Shown piece by piece: positions 18,028 through 27,352 of a stretch of 64,000 bases of DNA. Location of the stretch: the NCBI GenBank assembly GCA_013360865.1, contig JABWAS010000004.1:412-64411 (forward strand). The letters run 5' to 3'. Made by a program: the position numbers and the translations under genes. The notes beneath the pieces were generated by a model. It was not told where the DNA came from, did not search any database, and saw nothing but the letters and a program-made list of their open reading frames with translations. Positions within the stretch are counted from its first letter, which is position 1. Every line of letters begins with the position of its first letter. Source of the stretch: Candidatus Paceibacter sp. GTDB taxonomy: Bacteria; Patescibacteriota; Minisyncoccia; UBA9983.

Positions 18028-18786
18028 ATGGACAACATATATCTCGTACAAAGAACATTCCAATATGATTATATATATTTTGATGCCGTTTTTTTAATAA
18101 TCTGGATTGCTGTTTTGATTTATAAAAAAGAACATAGGGCGTTGCTGTTTGCTGTTGCTGTATCACCGTTGATTTATTTTATAGACGCTTATGTTTGGTG
18201 GAACAGTAAAATAGGGGATACTTATGTAAGGGAATATTGGATTAATGGCGTGCAAGTTCCTCACCCAGTTGGAAATTATTTTGTTACTAAATTCGGGGCA
18301 GATTTTATGATGACAATTTCCTATTCTTTATTTACATTCGCTTGGATTTGGATATTTTTTAAATATTTTAGAAGTAATAAGACTATAATTCCCATTAAGT
18401 ACGCGATTCTGTGGTTGTCTTTCTGGATATTTACTCCGGCATTATCAATTATGGCAAAAATAAATGATTCCACCGTTTACGCCGTTAGGCATATGCAATC
18501 GCAATATTTTATTTGGATTCTAGCCACCATTATATCCTATTTTGTTTTAGCGTTTGTTTATAAAAAAGAAAAAGTAATAGTTTTAAAACTATTTTGCGCG
18601 GGTTTTGTCGCTGTTATTATTATGGAATTTCCTCTTTTCGTTTTTAATATAAGACAGATGGGCTTTAAAATATTAATCTTTGACGGTTTTTTTATGATAA
18701 ATCAAGCTATCCCGGCGCTTTATATATTCTATGATAAGGTTTTAATGAAGCGGTTCAACTTTCCAAAAAATATTTTTCCTATATAA
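18028..18786 (+). CDS. Multi-pass integral membrane protein (unknown function), AT-rich
   Basis: 252 aa; ~7-8 hydrophobic helices, Trp/Phe/Ile-rich; ~27% GC. Confidence 0.4.
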   Translation: MDNIYLVQRTFQYDYIYFDAVFLIIWIAVLIYKKEHRALLFAVAVSPLIYFIDAYVWWNSKIGDTYVREYWINGVQVPHPVGNYFVTKFGADFMMTISYSLFTFAWIWIFFKYFRSNKTIIPIKYAILWLSFWIFTPALSIMAKINDSTVYAVRHMQSQYFIWILATIISYFVLAFVYKKEKVIVLKLFCAGFVAVIIMEFPLFVFNIRQMGFKILIFDGFFMINQAIPALYIFYDKVLMKRFNFPKNIFPI

Positions 18787-19956: not shown

Positions 19957-20098
19957 AAATAAAAACAACCGTTTGTGGAGTTGACAATTTATATGTTTTA
20001 ATGCTAATTTTTATTTGATTCTATTGTTCTTTAATAGTTTTATAAGAGTTAAAAACGTTAACTAAAAATTCATTTGAGGAAAGAAAGGAGAATGCTTT

Positions 20099-22396
20099 GT
20101 GAACGATAAATTATCTTTGTGTCACAGAATTGCCAAAAAATTATTTATCTACATCAACAATCACAATGGAGAAAAAAAAGATAGAGTTCTAAGGGACGAG
20201 CAAATGGCTGTTTTTGGAGAAATGGCAGAATTTTTTAACCGCGGAGAGCATGAAGGTTATATCAAGCTTCCTACGGGAGTTGGTAAAACTGTTTTATTCA
20301 TTGAGTTTCTTAAGGCAACGGGATTAAAGTCCATAATAGTAGTGCCAACCAATGTAATAACGGATCAAACAAAGAATCGGATAGAAGAATTTGCAGATAG
20401 TCTCGATTACGGAATTATAAACGCTTATGAAAAGGATTATGGCAAAACAATATCTATCACCACTTACAAGTCGCTTATACTCCAAGTAAGTAGCGGAAAA
20501 ATAAGTCCTAAAGATTATGAATGCGTCATTCTGGATGAAGCGCATAAAGCTCTTGGAAAAAAAGTGACAGAGATAATCAAACTTTTTCCTGAAGCCGTTA
20601 AAATTGGCTTTACCGCTACTCCACGTTATTCTGACGACAAGCATTTAGCTCACTTATTAACTAATGAAATAACGAGCATGTCAGTTCGTTCAGCGATTGA
20701 GGGTGGCTTGTTGTCAGGTTGTTCTGTTGTTTTTGCAATGACAGAAGTCAATATCTCACAGGTAAGCGTGCAAAATGGAAACTATTGCGAAGGAGAACTT
20801 GTAAAAGCCATAAATATTGAAAGCAGGAACTTTGGCGCTGTCGATATTTATAAGAAAATGTTTTCAGGCAAGAGTTCTATTGTGTATTGCGCAAGCATAA
20901 AACATGCTGAACAGGTTGCTTCATTATTTCAGAGTAATGAAATACCAGCCAGGGCGATAAGTTCTAAAAACAATAACAAAGAAAGGGAAAGCATGCTGAG
21001 AGATTTTTCTTCGGGAAAGATCAAGGTCTTATGTAATGCCGACCTCTTGATTCATGGTTTTGATGAGAAAAAGGCAAGTGTTTGCATAAATCTTTGTCCT
21101 ACTCTTTCGCTTGTTGTTGCGGAACAGAGAGCTGGGCGAGTCTTGAGACTGGATAATGAGAATCCGGATAAAGAGGCTTTTGTTGTTGATTTCTTGGATG
21201 TTACCAGAGCAAGCGCTTACCAACCAATCAGCTTTGCCGAGATATTAAACGGAGCAGATGTCAGGGGGCGAACCAACAGTCGCGACAATCGCCATAATAA
21301 TCAGTTTGTTGGCGGCAACGGCCATGATTTTAGCATTGGTAAAATAAAAGTAATCGCCAATGCTGAAATAATAATGAGAGTTATAAACGAGAGAAGGTTG
21401 CTAAGAAAGGCGACTAACAATTGGCTCAACTACGCTCAGTTTAAAGACTCGATAACCCGCGCTTTCGCTGAAATGATGGGCAGCAATTGGTCGGTCGAAA
21501 TAATGGGTGGCTTTATCGAAAAAATTAAAGAAGCCGAACCAGGCTGGTTTAGTGAAAGCAAAGAAGGCGAAAGTCTTAATTATTTTTGCGATCCTGCGCT
21601 TGTAAATTCCCTAAAAGCAGAATTTAAAAAAATAACTTCAGTGTGGATTAACCAAATCGACTTGGCGGAAAGATTAAAAATCAGTGAAATTGCTTTATTG
21701 GAGTTCGCACGTGTTATTAATGGTAATCTCGAAGAGGGTATTATCATTGATAAGATTGTAAACATTGACGGTAGGGAAGAAAAGATTCATTACATCCCGA
21801 GAAACATTCTCATGAAAAGGGTAAATGGAGTTAGGTTGGTGTATTTTTCGCCTAAGATGGTAAATTTGCTTGAGATAGAATTAAGAAAGAGCTCAGGTTC
21901 AGGACAAAGTAAACACGACGACAGTTCTTACCTAACAGAAGAAGAGTTAATAAATTTTCTTCTTACTAGTTTTGGTATGAGTGGTGACACAGAGGCCCAA
22001 GTCAAAATAAAGTCTTTTATTAGAAATTTTTTAAAAAAAGACCGCATTAGAGTAAAAAATCCTTTTTGGTTCCGCAATAAGGTTGTTATCAGGGAATCTT
22101 ATTCACCGGAATTCATTGAATTAATTAAGGGAGAAGTTAAAAATAAAGTTTACAATGACGAAAACGCAACCGGCGTTCACCAAAAGAATATCTTACTTTA
22201 TATGTGCAGAGAAAGGGGTATAAGTGTTCCTAGCTTCACTTTTACCATTACAGGACCGGACAATAGTCCTACTCATAGTTGTTTGTGTTTTCTGAATGAC
22301 GGCGGGAAAGTTATTAAAACAACCGGAACAGCCAAAACAAAAGCAGAGTCGAAAAAAATAGCAATAACAGAAATGTGTTCGTTATTGCGGTCTTAA
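20099..22396 (+). CDS. SF2 DEAH-box helicase (ResIII-like core) with ~330-aa unknown middle region and C-terminal dsRBD-like domain
   Basis: 765 aa; GTG start with AAAGGAG RBS; motif I LPTGVGKT, II ILDEAH, III FTATP, VI QRAGRVLR; C-terminal ~65 aa (SVPSFTFTITGPDNSPTHSCLCFLNDGGKVIKTTGTAKTKAESKKIAITEMCSLL) fits dsRBM alpha-beta3-alpha consensus; ~32% GC. Confidence 0.65.
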   Translation: MNDKLSLCHRIAKKLFIYINNHNGEKKDRVLRDEQMAVFGEMAEFFNRGEHEGYIKLPTGVGKTVLFIEFLKATGLKSIIVVPTNVITDQTKNRIEEFADSLDYGIINAYEKDYGKTISITTYKSLILQVSSGKISPKDYECVILDEAHKALGKKVTEIIKLFPEAVKIGFTATPRYSDDKHLAHLLTNEITSMSVRSAIEGGLLSGCSVVFAMTEVNISQVSVQNGNYCEGELVKAINIESRNFGAVDIYKKMFSGKSSIVYCASIKHAEQVASLFQSNEIPARAISSKNNNKERESMLRDFSSGKIKVLCNADLLIHGFDEKKASVCINLCPTLSLVVAEQRAGRVLRLDNENPDKEAFVVDFLDVTRASAYQPISFAEILNGADVRGRTNSRDNRHNNQFVGGNGHDFSIGKIKVIANAEIIMRVINERRLLRKATNNWLNYAQFKDSITRAFAEMMGSNWSVEIMGGFIEKIKEAEPGWFSESKEGESLNYFCDPALVNSLKAEFKKITSVWINQIDLAERLKISEIALLEFARVINGNLEEGIIIDKIVNIDGREEKIHYIPRNILMKRVNGVRLVYFSPKMVNLLEIELRKSSGSGQSKHDDSSYLTEEELINFLLTSFGMSGDTEAQVKIKSFIRNFLKKDRIRVKNPFWFRNKVVIRESYSPEFIELIKGEVKNKVYNDENATGVHQKNILLYMCRERGISVPSFTFTITGPDNSPTHSCLCFLNDGGKVIKTTGTAKTKAESKKIAITEMCSLLRS

Positions 22397-22431: not shown

Positions 22432-22470
22432 AAAGGGGGGCAAAAGAACATTGCCCTCCTTAATTTTTTG
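22432..22470. terminator. Bidirectional hairpin terminator between helicase gene and ftsZ
   Basis: AGGGGGGCAA-aagaaca-TTGCCCTCCT followed by TAATTTTTT. Confidence 0.6.
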
Positions 22471-22481
22471 AATAAGCTTGT

Positions 22482-25132: not shown

Positions 25133-25939
25133 TCAGGTGAAGCTGTCGCTATTCCTTTTTGTCGCTATTCCTTTTTGTTGCAGCTCTGATTCATAAATTG
25201 GAACTATAAAGTCTGCGGCTGCTTTTAGTTTTGAAGAAGATTGTCTGCCTCTTTTTTCTGGCGGGTATCCTTTGATAAACTCAATTACCCCAGCCTGCTT
25301 GCCTTTATGTTTAATTCTTTGGATTGATGGAATGCTGTCCGCATCCCCAGAAATTATCAGTGCGACATCATATATATCAGCAAGAGTAACCATGTCAACC
25401 GCCAAGGAAGTATCAATACCTTTCTCGTATAAATTTTTATTTAGTATGTCTACTTTTAAATGACCACAAGCAATAATATCTATAAAATCAGTTCCAGAGC
25501 TAACACCAAAATGAAAATCACGCAACCCATCAACATATTTTTTCTTTTGGTTATACCACGTGCTAATCTCGCTGAAACAAAGACGCCATGCTTCGCTAGC
25601 TAATTCTATTGGCGATGCTTCTGTTGAAGATAAATTGCTCCCCGCCAATGCCAAATATTTACGCTGCAGATCTTTGTCAGATTTAAACCAGTCCAAAAGC
25701 TGATTCTTAGATTCTGGTTCATCCAGTTTCCAAATATCAATTGAACCGACCGCGTACCAAAGCACCCTAATCAAACGAGCTTGTCCATAACCTCCGCCCA
25801 TTACAGAGGAGCTCCAGGAATCTATAGCCTGTTTTAAAATATAGTTTAAAAAAGTTCCGTACTCTTTAACACGCAAATTAAGATACTTTAGAGAGCCTGT
25901 AAGGTTTGAACCGTCAACGAATATAATAAACCTAGTCAT
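25133..25939 (-). CDS. NYN/LabA-like (PIN-fold) ribonuclease domain protein
   Basis: 268 aa; IFVDGSNL...EKGIDTSLAVDM...ALIISGDADSIPSIQRIKHKGKQAGVI matches NYN domain Asp arrangement; ~33% GC. Confidence 0.65.
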   Translation of the reverse strand: MTRFIIFVDGSNLTGSLKYLNLRVKEYGTFLNYILKQAIDSWSSSVMGGGYGQARLIRVLWYAVGSIDIWKLDEPESKNQLLDWFKSDKDLQRKYLALAGSNLSSTEASPIELASEAWRLCFSEISTWYNQKKKYVDGLRDFHFGVSSGTDFIDIIACGHLKVDILNKNLYEKGIDTSLAVDMVTLADIYDVALIISGDADSIPSIQRIKHKGKQAGVIEFIKGYPPEKRGRQSSSKLKAAADFIVPIYESELQQKGIATKRNSDSFT

Positions 25940-26411: not shown

Positions 26412-27116
26412 CTACAAATAGCAAACAAACATCATTATTTTGTCGTGCTTTTTCAAATTGCATACAGCACAAAGTAATCTGATATTTTTTTCTGTCAAAC
26501 TTGTTCCCCCTTTTGCGTATGGCAAATCGTGGTCATAGTGTAGGTTTTCTGCTGAACCACATATAACGCATTTTCCTCTATCTCTTTCCCAAACTTTCAC
26601 CTTTACCGATGTTGGTATAAGTCGGTTAAACGGTAAATCCTCAACACGATTAAAAATTTTGGTCAAAACCGGTTTCAAATAAAACTTGAAAACGTTTCTT
26701 TTACCGTCCGACACTTGCTTAACATCAATCAATTGAAAAAATCCTTTTATTGACCAAACGCCAACGTCAATTTTTTCATAAACTTTCACAAGTTCTGGGT
26801 CTTTTTTTAAACCGCTTTTGAAATCCATTGCCGCTTTGTAAAATTTTCCATTCTCTGTCCAAGTTCCATTTGGCGTTTCAAGTGGTTGGTCTTTTTCTTT
26901 TGGGTCAATTCCACCTTCGGCTCTGGCATCGTGCCCTTCGTAAATTAAATTTCCGTTTTCATCAAATCCATCATTATAAACCGCATCTTTCCTTTGCGAC
27001 ATCAACAAAATTGAATGTTTTCTTTTACCATCGGAAAAAACCATGCCGCGTTGCAGCGGCATTTTTTCCATTGCCACCATTTCGTGATATGAAATTATTT
27101 TATCGCTGTCTTGCAT
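26412..27116 (-). CDS. HNH endonuclease with ~170-aa uncharacterised N-terminal domain
   Basis: 234 aa; C-terminal CVICGSAENLHYDHDLPYAKGG...LLCAVCNLKKHDK HNH/zinc motif; start 4 nt after stop of truncated MTase fragment. Confidence 0.7.
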   Translation of the reverse strand: MQDSDKIISYHEMVAMEKMPLQRGMVFSDGKRKHSILLMSQRKDAVYNDGFDENGNLIYEGHDARAEGGIDPKEKDQPLETPNGTWTENGKFYKAAMDFKSGLKKDPELVKVYEKIDVGVWSIKGFFQLIDVKQVSDGKRNVFKFYLKPVLTKIFNRVEDLPFNRLIPTSVKVKVWERDRGKCVICGSAENLHYDHDLPYAKGGTSLTEKNIRLLCAVCNLKKHDKIMMFVCYL

Positions 27117-27118
27117 AT

Positions 27119-27352
27119 TTATATTTTGATTAAATCGCCGTAATTTTTTTCTTCTTCGCCGAAAAAATCCCTGTAAGTTTTTACAGCGTTTTTATCTATT
27201 TCAGAAAACCCGACGCATTTCATTCCCAAGTTTTCAAGCCCGAGACGACCTCCGCCAATCCCGGCGCAAAAATCCATAAATTTAATTTTGTCACTAATCA
27301 TACTTTGTATTATATAAGAAATGACACAATATAAAATATTTTCATCTAGCAA
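27119..27352 (-). pseudogene. Truncated DNA cytosine-5 methyltransferase (N-terminal 77 aa only)
   Basis: Motif I FMDFCAGIGGGRLGLE and motif II/III region (CVGFSEIDKNAVKTY...GDLIKI) then stop; no PCQ (motif IV) or ENV follows. Confidence 0.6.

What the first reader, a model, noticed from the sequence alone, without database searches (positions are those of the whole stretch)
20099..22396. AT-rich stand-alone SF2 DEAH helicase with a C-terminal dsRBD-like domain
- **Domain layout:** The 765-aa protein has a ResIII/DEAH helicase core (motifs I, II, III, VI present), ~330 aa of unrecognised sequence, and a terminal ~65-aa segment matching the dsRNA-binding-motif consensus (GPxHxxxF..G..GxGxxKKxAKxxAAxxxL-like: TGTAKTKAESKKIAITEMCSLL).
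- **Context:** It is ~32% GC against ~48% GC flanks, uses a GTG start, has its own terminator, and sits convergent to ftsZ between housekeeping genes.

A helicase + dsRBD architecture parallels eukaryotic RIG-I/Dicer-type nucleic-acid sensors. In bacteria it may mark a single-gene antiviral or RNA-surveillance module, and it appears to be horizontally acquired.
Basis: partly seen in the sequence, partly recalled or inferred. Interest (0 to 1): 0.65.

Follow-up and report, generated by a model that had tools for sequence, protein, structure and literature searches.

The report
CPR helicase with terminal dsRNA-binding domain
A gene in an ultra-small (Patescibacteria) bacterium encodes an ATP-driven DNA-helicase-type motor followed by three DNA-binding-like repeats and a genuine double-stranded-RNA-binding domain; no other example of this combination turned up, but nothing found shows it is an antiviral sensor.

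Summary
Window 20099-22396 (+) is an intact 765-aa ORF with a GTG start, an AAAGGAG Shine-Dalgarno sequence, all SF2 motifs and a bidirectional terminator shared with ftsZ.

- **C-terminal domain:** The last ~78 aa are a real dsRBD. Pfam dsrm is sub-threshold (14.3 bits). An exhaustive phmmer search of 1.84 billion proteins finds bona fide multi-dsrm proteins (best E = 3e-13). The AF2 model (pLDDT 89.5) matches solved dsRBDs (1di2, rmsd 1.3 Å).
- **Middle region:** The "unrecognised 330 aa" is a basic linker plus three degenerate copies of a ~75-aa helix-helix-hairpin-helix (HTH-like) repeat. This repeat is typical of a helicase family whose named homologues are all Patescibacteria.
- **Motor:** It groups with XPB/Rad25, RadD, SauUSI and phage DNA helicases, not with RIG-I/Dicer.
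- **Fusion:** No other helicase carries a detectably similar dsRBD.
- **Location:** The gene is 37.6% GC (not 32%) and falls in a low-GC3 gene class. It is absent from the conserved ftsZ-trxB junction in 80 related genomes, so it is a lineage-specific arrival.
- **Partners:** No Mod, nuclease or defence neighbours appear here or beside 7 homologues.

The most likely reading is an accessory DNA translocase whose tail targets A-form duplexes such as RNA:DNA hybrids or dsRNA. The defence role is untested. I class it as a new variant of a known kind.

The parts
20084..20090 (+). Shine-Dalgarno AAAGGAG, 8 nt before the GTG start
   Evidence: Read directly from the sequence.
20099..22396 (+). 765-aa ORF (stop codon included): SF2 helicase, three HTH-like repeats, dsRBD
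   Evidence: It is 100% identical to NCBI NUQ57117.1, 'DEAD/DEAH box helicase family protein [Candidatus Paceibacter sp.]'.
20189..20626 (+). RecA-like domain 1 (ResIII; Q-like motif and motifs I, Ia, II DEAH, III TATP), aa 31-176
   Evidence: Pfam PF04851 at 8.3e-26.
20864..21151 (+). RecA-like domain 2 (Helicase_C; motif VI QRAGRVLR; candidate motifs IV IVYC and V LIHGFD), aa 256-351
   Evidence: Pfam PF00271 at 5.3e-15. Motif positions are; IV and V were located by pattern only.
21239..21403 (+). Basic linker (pI 10.7), aa 381-435; its C-terminal half is shared with about 15 homologues
21404..21631 (+). PEWF-type repeat unit 1 (aa 436-511; signature PGWF...YFCDPALV)
   Evidence: Unit HMM scores 17.3 bits, i-E 1.6e-7. 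It aligns in register in A2. AF2 shows H-H-hairpin-H.
21644..21889 (+). PEWF-type repeat unit 2, degenerate, with an ~18-aa insertion (aa 516-597; WINQIDLAERLKIS...VYFSPKMV)
   Evidence: Only split, weak HMM hits (1.2 and 2.2 bits). Placement rests on the in-register alignment A2. The AF2 core is folded but the insertion has pLDDT below 50.
21929..22141 (+). PEWF-type repeat unit 3 (aa 611-681; signature NPFWF...SYSPEFIELI)
   Evidence: Unit HMM scores 17.5 bits, i-E 1.4e-7. See also A2 and AF2.
22160..22393 (+). dsRBD (aa 688-765): alpha1 688-706, beta1-3 712-745, alpha2 748-764; GPDN at 719-722, KAESKK at 748-753
22433..22471 (.). Bidirectional intrinsic terminator (11-bp stem with 6 G-C pairs, T-tracts on both strands) shared with convergent ftsZ

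Best explanation
The gene encodes an accessory, stand-alone SF2 ATPase/helicase belonging to a family found across Patescibacteria (CPR).

**Architecture (shown).** The motor is a two-RecA core of the XPB/Rad25-RadD-SauUSI-phage 'DNA helicase' branch. It is followed by a C-terminal tail. In most family members the tail is an array of 1-10 copies of a ~75-aa helix-helix-beta-hairpin-helix (HTH-like) repeat. In this Paceibacter lineage the array is reduced to three degenerate units and is capped by a genuine dsRBD.

**Mechanism (inferred).** The motor hydrolyses ATP to translocate on or unwind duplex nucleic acid. The HTH-like units hold duplex DNA. The terminal dsRBD recognises an A-form duplex, meaning dsRNA or an RNA:DNA hybrid. 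Together these would direct the enzyme to places where RNA-containing duplex meets DNA, such as R-loops, primer or transcript hybrids, or replication and transcription intermediates of invading elements. The enzyme would remodel these structures rather than cut them, because it has no nuclease domain.

**History (shown).** The gene arrived at this locus in this lineage only, between the otherwise adjacent ftsZ and trxB.
For: **Intact and real**
- ORF, SD, motifs and terminator are all present.
- The same protein in the same context occurs on 13 contigs. Strain variants are 99.3-99.7% identical.

**Motor clade**
- PDB phmmer: XPBII 4e-17, SauUSI 7e-16 over aa 49-401, Rad25 1e-12, RadD 5e-10.
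- PHROG_16 'DNA helicase' 4e-66. Annotated phage helicases are about 28% identical.

**Family**
- 451 homologues were found. All source names shown are Patescibacteria lineages. Cores are 48-58% identical over about 370 aa.

**Tail**
- The 75-aa unit occurs in 66 of 120 family members at 1-10 copies.
- The query's three units align in register with them.
- AF2 gives pLDDT 80.9, with each unit H-H-hairpin-H.
- Pfam HTH_29/28/23/17 families hit the same repeats in homologue P0017.
- The best viral Foldseek matches are phage HTH DNA-binding proteins (prob 0.98 and 0.93), plus MerR-like and Cox proteins.

**dsRBD:**

**Fusion unique:** none of the 37 other dsRBD hits has the helicase core. None of the 120 listed homologues carries PF00035.

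**Acquired locus**
- ftsA-ftsZ-trxB is conserved in 70/80 relatives, and the helicase is present in 0/80.
- A DsbA-like gene occupies the slot in the closest relatives.
- The gene belongs to the low-GC3 class.

**No partners:**
Against: - No biochemical evidence exists for any member of this family.
- The dsRBD lacks the canonical His of GPxH, the second Lys of KKxAK and the helix-1 Glu. It could be a type-B dsRBD used for protein contacts.
- The repeat fold has no significant PDB match (best E = 0.09). The viral matches are above 1e-3. Unit 2 is barely detectable by HMM.
- The AF2 dsRBD model used an alignment made of dsRBDs, so it is not fully independent of the sequence evidence.
- Which nucleic acid the motor translocates on is inferred only from its nearest relatives.
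- The absence of the helicase near ftsZ in relatives shows a different location. It does not prove transfer from outside the lineage.
Confidence: 0.55

Rival explanations
1. It is a single-gene antiviral or RNA-surveillance sensor. The dsRBD would detect phage dsRNA or replication intermediates, and the helicase would act as a sensor or effector, as in RIG-I or Dicer.
For: - It is an accessory, low-GC3 gene that is specific to this locus in this lineage.
- The family has a hypervariable C-terminal 'reader' tail with interchangeable repeat classes.
- Its positions in genomes are patchy and variable, in one case beside a serine recombinase and a Fic gene.
- Close relatives of the core include the Type IV restriction enzyme SauUSI and PADLOC's mREase_IV and PbeA.
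- An HNH endonuclease, a truncated C5 methylase and a NYN gene lie 3-5 kb away.
Against: - There is no effector of any kind (nuclease, TIR, toxin or membrane domain).
- PADLOC matches cover only the generic helicase core.
- No defence island appears around this gene or 7 homologues, whose neighbours are mostly housekeeping genes.
- The motor is not of the RIG-I/Dicer duplex-RNA-activated ATPase clade.
- No close relative was found in viral contigs.
- The dsRBD contact motifs are degenerate.
Confidence: 0.2
2. It is a repair or recombination helicase of CPR bacteria, a functional analogue of RadD or XPB. The dsRBD would be a lineage-specific add-on for R-loop or primer-hybrid recognition.
For: - The best NCBIfam and PDB similarities are to RadD and XPB.
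- DNA repair or recombination genes lie within 8 kb in 4 of 8 neighbourhoods: RuvC/RuvB/PolA/Fpg, RecJ/RNase H, DprA and RecO.
- The family is widespread in CPR.
Against: - Scores are far below the equivalog cutoffs: RadD 67 against 720, XPB 52 against 610.
- There is no RED motif.
- No N-terminal damage-recognition domain or RadD zinc finger is detected by Pfam.
- The neighbourhood signal could be chance in tiny, gene-dense genomes.
- Variable location and foreign-like composition fit an accessory gene better than a core repair gene.
Confidence: 0.2
3. It is an orphan or decayed restriction subunit (Type III Res or Type I HsdR-like), or a remnant of a mobile element or phage replication module, with no current cellular role.
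For: - The Pfam name is ResIII.
- PHROG_16 DNA helicase matches at 4e-66.
- Sister proteins carry homing-endonuclease-type repeats, HNH_repeat and INT_rpt.
- Family members sit inside conserved operons, as free-standing mobile genes do.
Against: - There is no endonuclease domain and no Mod or HsdM/S neighbour anywhere examined.
- All motifs are intact, the SD is strong and there is a dedicated terminator.
- The protein is 99.3-100% conserved across samples.
- No flanking repeats or integrase are present at this locus.
- Phage relatives are below 30% identity.
Confidence: 0.05

Closest known systems
Patescibacteria (CPR) stand-alone DEAD/DEAH helicase family with C-terminal repeat arrays (uncharacterised; e.g. 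NCBI 'MAG: DEAD/DEAH box helicase' of Daviesbacteria, Levybacteria, Magasanikbacteria)
   Same: The core is 48-58% identical over about 370 aa. The same ~75-aa PEWF-type repeat follows the core. These genes also stand alone.
   Different: The query has only three, degenerate units where relatives have up to 10. It lacks the ~75-aa N-terminal extension that is the median in the family. It alone ends in a dsRBD.
XPB/Rad25 and XPBII (archaeal/eukaryal NER/TFIIH dsDNA translocases); RadD (E. coli)
   Same: These are the closest solved motors by sequence (4e-17 to 5e-10), with the same ResIII + Helicase_C core.
   Different: There is no RED motif. No damage-recognition domain, thumb insert or RadD zinc/C-terminal domain was detected. 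NCBIfam scores are far below the cutoffs. The tail is unrelated.
SauUSI (PDB 7clg), Type IV modification-dependent restriction enzyme
   Same: The helicase core aligns over aa 49-401 (7e-16). PADLOC mREase_IV matches at 1e-17.
   Different: SauUSI has an N-terminal PLD nuclease and a C-terminal target-recognition domain. No Pfam family matches the query outside its helicase core.
Eukaryotic helicase + dsRBD proteins: DHX9/MLE (N-terminal dsRBDs + DExH) and Dicer (helicase ... RNase III + C-terminal dsRBD); RIG-I-like receptors
   Same: They share the concept of an SF2 motor combined with a dsRBD. The query dsRBD model superposes on the Loqs, TRBP, DHX9 and MLE dsRBDs.
   Different: The motor belongs to a different SF2 branch, and none of these proteins appears among PDB sequence hits at E <= 1e-3. 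No Hel2i, HA2/OB, RNase III or RIG-I CTD domain was detected by Pfam. RIG-I itself has no dsRBD (my own knowledge).
RNB (RNase II/R-type) exoribonucleases with 2-4 C-terminal dsRBDs (metagenomic; e.g. P0121, P0129)
   Same: They hold the dsRBDs closest in sequence to the query's (E down to 3e-13; single domains up to 34 bits).
   Different: The catalytic domain is entirely different, and identity is only 25-32%. This is not evidence of a recent donor.

Membership tests
SF2 helicase (ResIII + Helicase_C) | Two RecA-like domains with motifs Q/I/Ia/II/III/VI | tested here: met
   PF04851 at 8e-26 and PF00271 at 5e-15. Motifs located.
dsRBD (Pfam dsrm, PF00035) | Score at or above the Pfam gathering threshold (23 bits) | tested here: not met
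   14.3 bits, E = 0.06.
dsRBD (Pfam dsrm, PF00035) | Significant sequence similarity to bona fide dsrm domains | tested here: met
   phmmer against 1.84e9 proteins gives a best hit of 2.8e-13, and all 10 scanned hits are dsrm proteins. The PDB search gives DRB3 at 1.6e-3, plus RNase III, DRB4, PACT and E3.
dsRBD (Pfam dsrm, PF00035) | alpha1-beta1-beta2-beta3-alpha2 fold | tested here: met
   AF2 pLDDT 89.5. Foldseek top 50 are all dsRBDs, with 1di2 at TM 0.87 and rmsd 1.3 Å. Caveat: the input alignment was made of dsRBDs.
dsRBD (Pfam dsrm, PF00035) | Canonical RNA-contact residues (helix-1 Glu, GPxH, KKxAK) | tested here: inconclusive
   The query has Tyr for Glu, GPDN for GPxH, and KAESKK, which keeps 2 of 3 Lys and adds one. 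The assignment of these positions as contact residues is from my knowledge of the Xlrbpa-dsRNA structure.
dsRBD (Pfam dsrm, PF00035) | Binds dsRNA | not testable with these tools
   This needs EMSA or fluorescence anisotropy with the purified domain.
Type III restriction Res subunit | Endonuclease domain at the C-terminus and an adjacent Mod methyltransferase | tested here: not met
   No nuclease family was detected. No methylase adjoins the gene here or beside 7 homologues.
RIG-I-like / Dicer duplex-RNA-activated ATPases | Motor of the RLR/Dicer clade, with Hel2i insertion, pincer and CTD or RNase III modules | tested here: not met
   No RLR or Dicer chain appears among PDB hits at E <= 1e-3. 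No such Pfam domains were found. Only about 80 aa separate motif III from Helicase_C.
XPB/Rad25 | Equivalog-level similarity, RED motif, damage-recognition domain | tested here: not met
   NCBIfam XPB scores 51.9 against a cutoff of 610. RED is absent. Only 30 aa precede the Q-like motif.
RadD | Equivalog-level similarity | tested here: not met
   NCBIfam RadD scores 67 against a cutoff of 720.
Known defence systems (PADLOC-DB v2) | Full-length match to a system protein, plus the system's partner genes | tested here: not met
   Only core-restricted matches were found (PbeA, mREase_IV, Cas3, DpdF). The three upstream neighbours (orf252, ferredoxin, TrxB) give no PADLOC hits.
CPR helicase family with PEWF-type repeats | Core at least ~45% identical to family members, plus at least one PEWF-type unit after the core | tested here: met
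   Core identity is 48-58%. Units 1 and 3 score 17.3 and 17.5 bits. The units align in register in A2.
HNH_repeat / INT_rpt homing-endonuclease repeats | Profile similarity of the query repeats to these Pfam repeats | tested here: not met
   Profiles built from sister helicases do not hit the query. hhalign probabilities are 3% and 15%.

The most novel reading that the evidence does not exclude
The CPR helicase family would be a modular nucleic-acid surveillance platform, in which a constant XPB-like motor reads targets through swappable tail arrays (PEWF, INT_rpt or HNH_repeat). The Paceibacter variant would then be the first bacterial SF2 DNA-translocase that uses a dsRBD to sense dsRNA or RNA:DNA hybrids. 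That would make it a prokaryotic functional analogue of helicase-dsRBD sensors, arisen independently of the RIG-I/Dicer/DHX9 lineages, and acting in defence or in conflict with mobile elements.
Probability: 0.15. Interest if true: 0.75.

Novelty: new variant of a known kind. Interest (0 to 1): 0.45.

Why it matters
dsRBDs in bacteria are known almost only from RNase III (my own knowledge). An exhaustive search found no second case of a dsRBD like this one on a DNA-translocase-type SF2 motor. The held literature, with the terms tried, described no bacterial helicase-dsRBD fusion.

If the domain binds A-form duplexes, the protein would give a simple bacterial system for studying how a dsRBD steers a helicase. 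It might also point to R-loop handling or RNA surveillance in organisms with minimal genomes.

More broadly, it draws attention to a large and uncharacterised CPR helicase family. The family's tails are arrays of up to ten HTH-like repeats that fall into mutually exclusive classes.

Its importance is limited because the fusion is confined to one species-level lineage and no function has been demonstrated.

Tried and rejected
1. **Type III or Type I restriction orphan: rejected.** There is no nuclease domain and no methylase partner.
2. **RIG-I/Dicer-clade motor: rejected**.
3. **Query repeats equal to HNH_repeat or INT_rpt: rejected** by profile searches and hhalign.
4. **Transposon-like insertion:** no flanking direct or inverted repeats of note.
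5. **Phage origin:** no close relative in IMG/VR. Annotated phage helicases are below 30% identity.
6. **Internal repeats by BLAST self-comparison:** nothing found. They became visible only with profiles built from homologues.
8. **Search for other proteins with PEWF repeats:**
   - The profile search with alignment A2 returned zero hits, probably a tool limitation.
   - A consensus query found 33 short proteins made only of repeats, with no other catalytic fusion.
9. **Selection on the dsRBD:** strain variants differ at only 2-5 residues, all in the core, which is too few for a test.
10. **Origin of the dsRBD:**
    - The closest dsRBDs are in RNB exoribonucleases, at 25-32% identity.
    - One of them sits on an ORFan-rich 1.6-Mb contig of unknown taxonomy.
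    - No second dsRBD exists in the window.
11. **Literature:** four searches found no description of this family or fusion. One paper I read (PMC3710099) mentions only RNase III/HEPN-dsRBD fusions in bacteria.
Full report
**1. The observation**

The ORF at 20099-22396 (+) is real. It encodes 765 aa from a GTG start and is preceded by AAAGGAG at 20084-20090. It is followed by an 11-bp stem-loop with T-tracts on both strands at 22433-22461. This terminator lies between the helicase and the convergent ftsZ gene.

Pfam finds ResIII at aa 31-176 (8e-26) and Helicase_C at aa 256-351 (5e-15). The motifs are intact: Q-like LRDEQ, I PTGVGKT, Ia VVPT, II DEAH, III TATP and VI QRAGRVLR.

The exact protein is deposited as NUQ57117.1, 'DEAD/DEAH box helicase family protein [Candidatus Paceibacter sp.]'. 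It occurs in the same gene context on 13 contigs from several sequencing runs, so it is not an assembly chimera.

The gene is 37.6% GC, against 45% for trxB, 52% for ftsZ/ftsA and 44.3% for the window.

GC3 in the window is bimodal. Ten of the 49 long ORFs have GC3 of 0.30-0.37, and the rest have 0.38-0.71 (all but one at 0.42 or above). The low class includes the helicase (0.35), the HNH and NYN genes and orf252.

**2. The C-terminal domain is a dsRBD**

Pfam dsrm alone is sub-threshold at 14.3 bits, E = 0.06, against a cutoff of 23. Three further lines of evidence agree with it.

- **PDB sequence search.** phmmer with aa 682-765 lists DRB3 dsRBD2 (1.6e-3), M. tuberculosis RNase III, DRB4, PACT and vaccinia E3.
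- **Exhaustive search.** phmmer against 1.84 billion representatives finds 37 other proteins at E <= 1e-3, the best at 2.8e-13.
  - About two-thirds show 2-4 full-length dsRBD-sized matches. The rest are long repeat proteins with weak partial matches.
  - All ten proteins scanned against Pfam carry 2-3 significant dsrm domains. Seven of them are RNB exoribonucleases with C-terminal dsrm arrays.
- **Structure.** An AF2 model built on an alignment of these segments has mean pLDDT 89.5 and alpha-beta-beta-beta-alpha order.
  - Its 50 best Foldseek matches in the PDB are all dsRBDs.
  - They are headed by the Xlrbpa dsRBD-dsRNA complex 1di2 (TM 0.87, rmsd 1.3 Å).
  - The alignment was made of dsRBDs, so the model is not independent of the sequence evidence.

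The domain deviates at the positions that usually contact RNA. It has GPDN for GPxH, KAESKK for KKxAK, and Tyr where helix 1 usually has Glu. RNA binding is therefore plausible but unproven.

**3. The 'unrecognised' 330 aa**

BLAST of the tail against family members gave several hits per subject at a period of about 70 aa. An iterated profile defined a 75-aa unit. Its consensus is ...APEGWLTASALAKELGVSRKTIKKFAEKYRESHPEWFKKYKGKRGRIAEHYSPELVEIIKEEL. The unit is present in 66 of the 120 best homologues, in 1-10 copies.

The query holds three units:

| Unit | Residues | Support |
|---|---|---|
| 1 | 436-511 | 17.3 bits |
| 2 | 516-597 | degenerate, ~18-aa insertion, weak HMM signal only |
| 3 | 611-681 | 17.5 bits |

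All three align in register with three-unit windows taken from homologues. AF2 folds the region with pLDDT 80.9. Each unit is helix-helix-beta-hairpin-helix.

Evidence on the fold is weak but consistent:

- Foldseek finds no significant PDB match. The best E is 0.09, and the weak list is enriched for tandem winged-helix proteins.
- In the viral library the best matches are phage 'HTH DNA binding' proteins (prob 0.98 and 0.93), with MerR-like and Cox proteins matching single units.
- Pfam HTH_29, HTH_28, HTH_23 and HTH_17 hit the same repeats in homologue P0017.

I therefore read the units as HTH-type, probably DNA-binding, modules. That reading is an inference.

Other family members carry different repeats in the same position: INT_rpt-type in 39 of 120 and HNH_repeat in 1 of 120. 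These classes are mutually exclusive with the PEWF type, and hhalign detects no relation to it. A consensus search found PEWF repeats only in short proteins made of repeats alone, never fused to another enzyme.

**4. The motor and its family**

The nearest solved relatives of aa 1-414 are XPBII (4e-17), SauUSI (7e-16, aligned over aa 49-401), Rad25/XPB (1e-12) and RadD (5e-10). DEAD-box proteins match only through RecA2. No RIG-I, MDA5, Dicer or DHX9 chain reaches E <= 1e-3.

PHROG_16 'DNA helicase' matches at 4e-66. Annotated phage helicases are about 28% identical, and IMG/VR holds no close relative.

NCBIfam scores for RadD (67 against 720) and XPB (52 against 610) are far below the equivalog cutoffs. 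PADLOC gives only core-restricted matches.

The true family consists of 451 or more helicases. Every source name shown is a Patescibacteria lineage. Cores are 48-58% identical to the query.

None of the 120 listed members carries PF00035. None of the 37 dsRBD relatives contains the helicase core. The fusion therefore appears confined to this lineage.

**5. Genomic setting**

Around FtsZ in 80 related reference genomes (60-72% FtsZ identity), ftsA-ftsZ-trxB is conserved. trxB lies within about 2 kb of ftsZ in nearly all of the 70 loci where it is found. The helicase core is found in none of the 80 loci.

The five closest relatives have the same convergent fdx-trxB arrangement. In them, a 245-aa membrane-anchored CPxC thioredoxin-fold gene fills the gap that the helicase occupies here. 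That gene is absent from the whole window. No flanking repeats mark the insertion.

Seven homologues examined in their own contigs sit at unrelated sites, with no Mod, nuclease or recognised defence gene beside them:

- P0014 lies between yebC-ruvC and ruvB.
- P0015 lies after rpsL-rpsG.
- P0051 lies inside the dcw cluster.
- P0039 lies beside a serine recombinase and a Fic gene.
- The other three (P0003, P0005, P0065) lie among hypothetical genes.

DNA repair genes occur within 8 kb in four of the eight contexts. This may be chance in such compact genomes.

**6. Interpretation**

What is shown:

- The motor is an intact SF2 helicase of the XPB/RadD/SauUSI branch.
- Three family-typical repeats and a genuine dsRBD follow it.
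- The gene stands alone, is specific to this locus in this lineage, and has an atypical composition.

What is inferred: the tail targets the motor. The HTH-like units would bind DNA, and the dsRBD would bind an A-form duplex, either dsRNA or an RNA:DNA hybrid. The enzyme would then remodel RNA-containing duplexes next to DNA without cutting them.

I give this reading about 0.55 overall. The architecture is near-certain, and the substrate logic is perhaps 0.35-0.4.

The rivals are:

- A defence sensor (0.2). It is not excluded, but there is no effector and no defence context.
- A RadD/XPB-like repair helicase (0.2).
- An orphan restriction subunit or a mobile-element remnant (0.05).

**7. Verdict**

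The domain call, the stand-alone status and the acquisition are sound. The RIG-I/Dicer analogy is only architectural, and an antiviral role has no direct support.

I class this as a new variant of a known kind: an uncharacterised CPR helicase family with an unprecedented dsRBD cap. Interest is moderate (0.45). The finding is a clean, testable and unusual architecture, but it is limited to one lineage and has no functional evidence.

Noticed in passing
window 26412-27352 (-): A 77-aa ORF at 27119-27352 matches only the first 50 positions of the C5 cytosine DNA methylase profile (2e-12). It abuts a 234-aa HNH endonuclease ORF at 26412-27116. Both lie between ybeY and a NYN-domain gene. This could be a truncated restriction-modification system or an HNH insertion into a methylase gene.
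   Followed up: partly
window 25133-25939 (-): An AT-rich (38.5% GC, GC3 0.33) 268-aa NYN-domain protein lies just upstream of ftsA. A NYN homologue was seen near ftsZ in only 1 of 80 related genomes.
   Followed up: partly
window 18028-18786 (+): This is the ORF with the lowest GC among the 49 long ORFs (30.8%). It encodes a 252-aa hydrophobic, probably polytopic membrane protein with no hit in Pfam, NCBIfam, PHROGs or PADLOC. It sits directly upstream of ferredoxin-trxB.
   Followed up: partly
whole window: GC3 of the long ORFs is bimodal. Ten of 49 ORFs have GC3 of 0.30-0.37 (starts at 1897, 3480, 4515, 6638, 18028, 20099, 25133, 26412, 31624 and 46473). The rest have 0.38-0.71, all but one at 0.42 or above. 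This suggests a sizeable accessory or acquired gene fraction.
   Followed up: no
L012 11114-11860; also L013, L014, L031, L050: The closest relatives carry a ~245-aa membrane-anchored CPxC (DsbA/thioredoxin-like) gene between ftsZ and convergent trxB. This gene is missing from the entire 64-kb window, and the helicase occupies its place.
   Followed up: yes
homologue loci L009, L011, L093, L092: Family members sit inside otherwise conserved operons. One is between yebC-ruvC and ruvB, one follows rpsL-rpsG, and one is within the dcw cluster between the mur ligases/YdjM and ftsI. Another lies beside a large serine recombinase and a Fic gene. This placement resembles that of free-standing mobile genes.
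   Followed up: partly
proteins P0121, P0123, P0126, P0127, P0129, P0131, P0133: RNB (RNase II/R-type) exoribonucleases with 2-4 C-terminal dsRBDs form a recurrent metagenomic architecture. P0129 lies on a 1.6-Mb contig full of ORFs without Pfam hits, of unknown taxonomy.
   Followed up: partly
homologue tails (P0002-P0120): The helicase family has three mutually exclusive tail repeat classes: PEWF-type in 66, INT_rpt-type in 39 and HNH_repeat in 1, with 14 having none. Copy number ranges from 1 to 10, and no homology between the classes is detectable.
   Followed up: yes
L011 10732-11100: A 122-aa ORF (P0181) overlaps the 3' end of helicase P0015 and consists of PEWF repeats. It suggests a frameshifted or split tail in that genome.
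   Followed up: no
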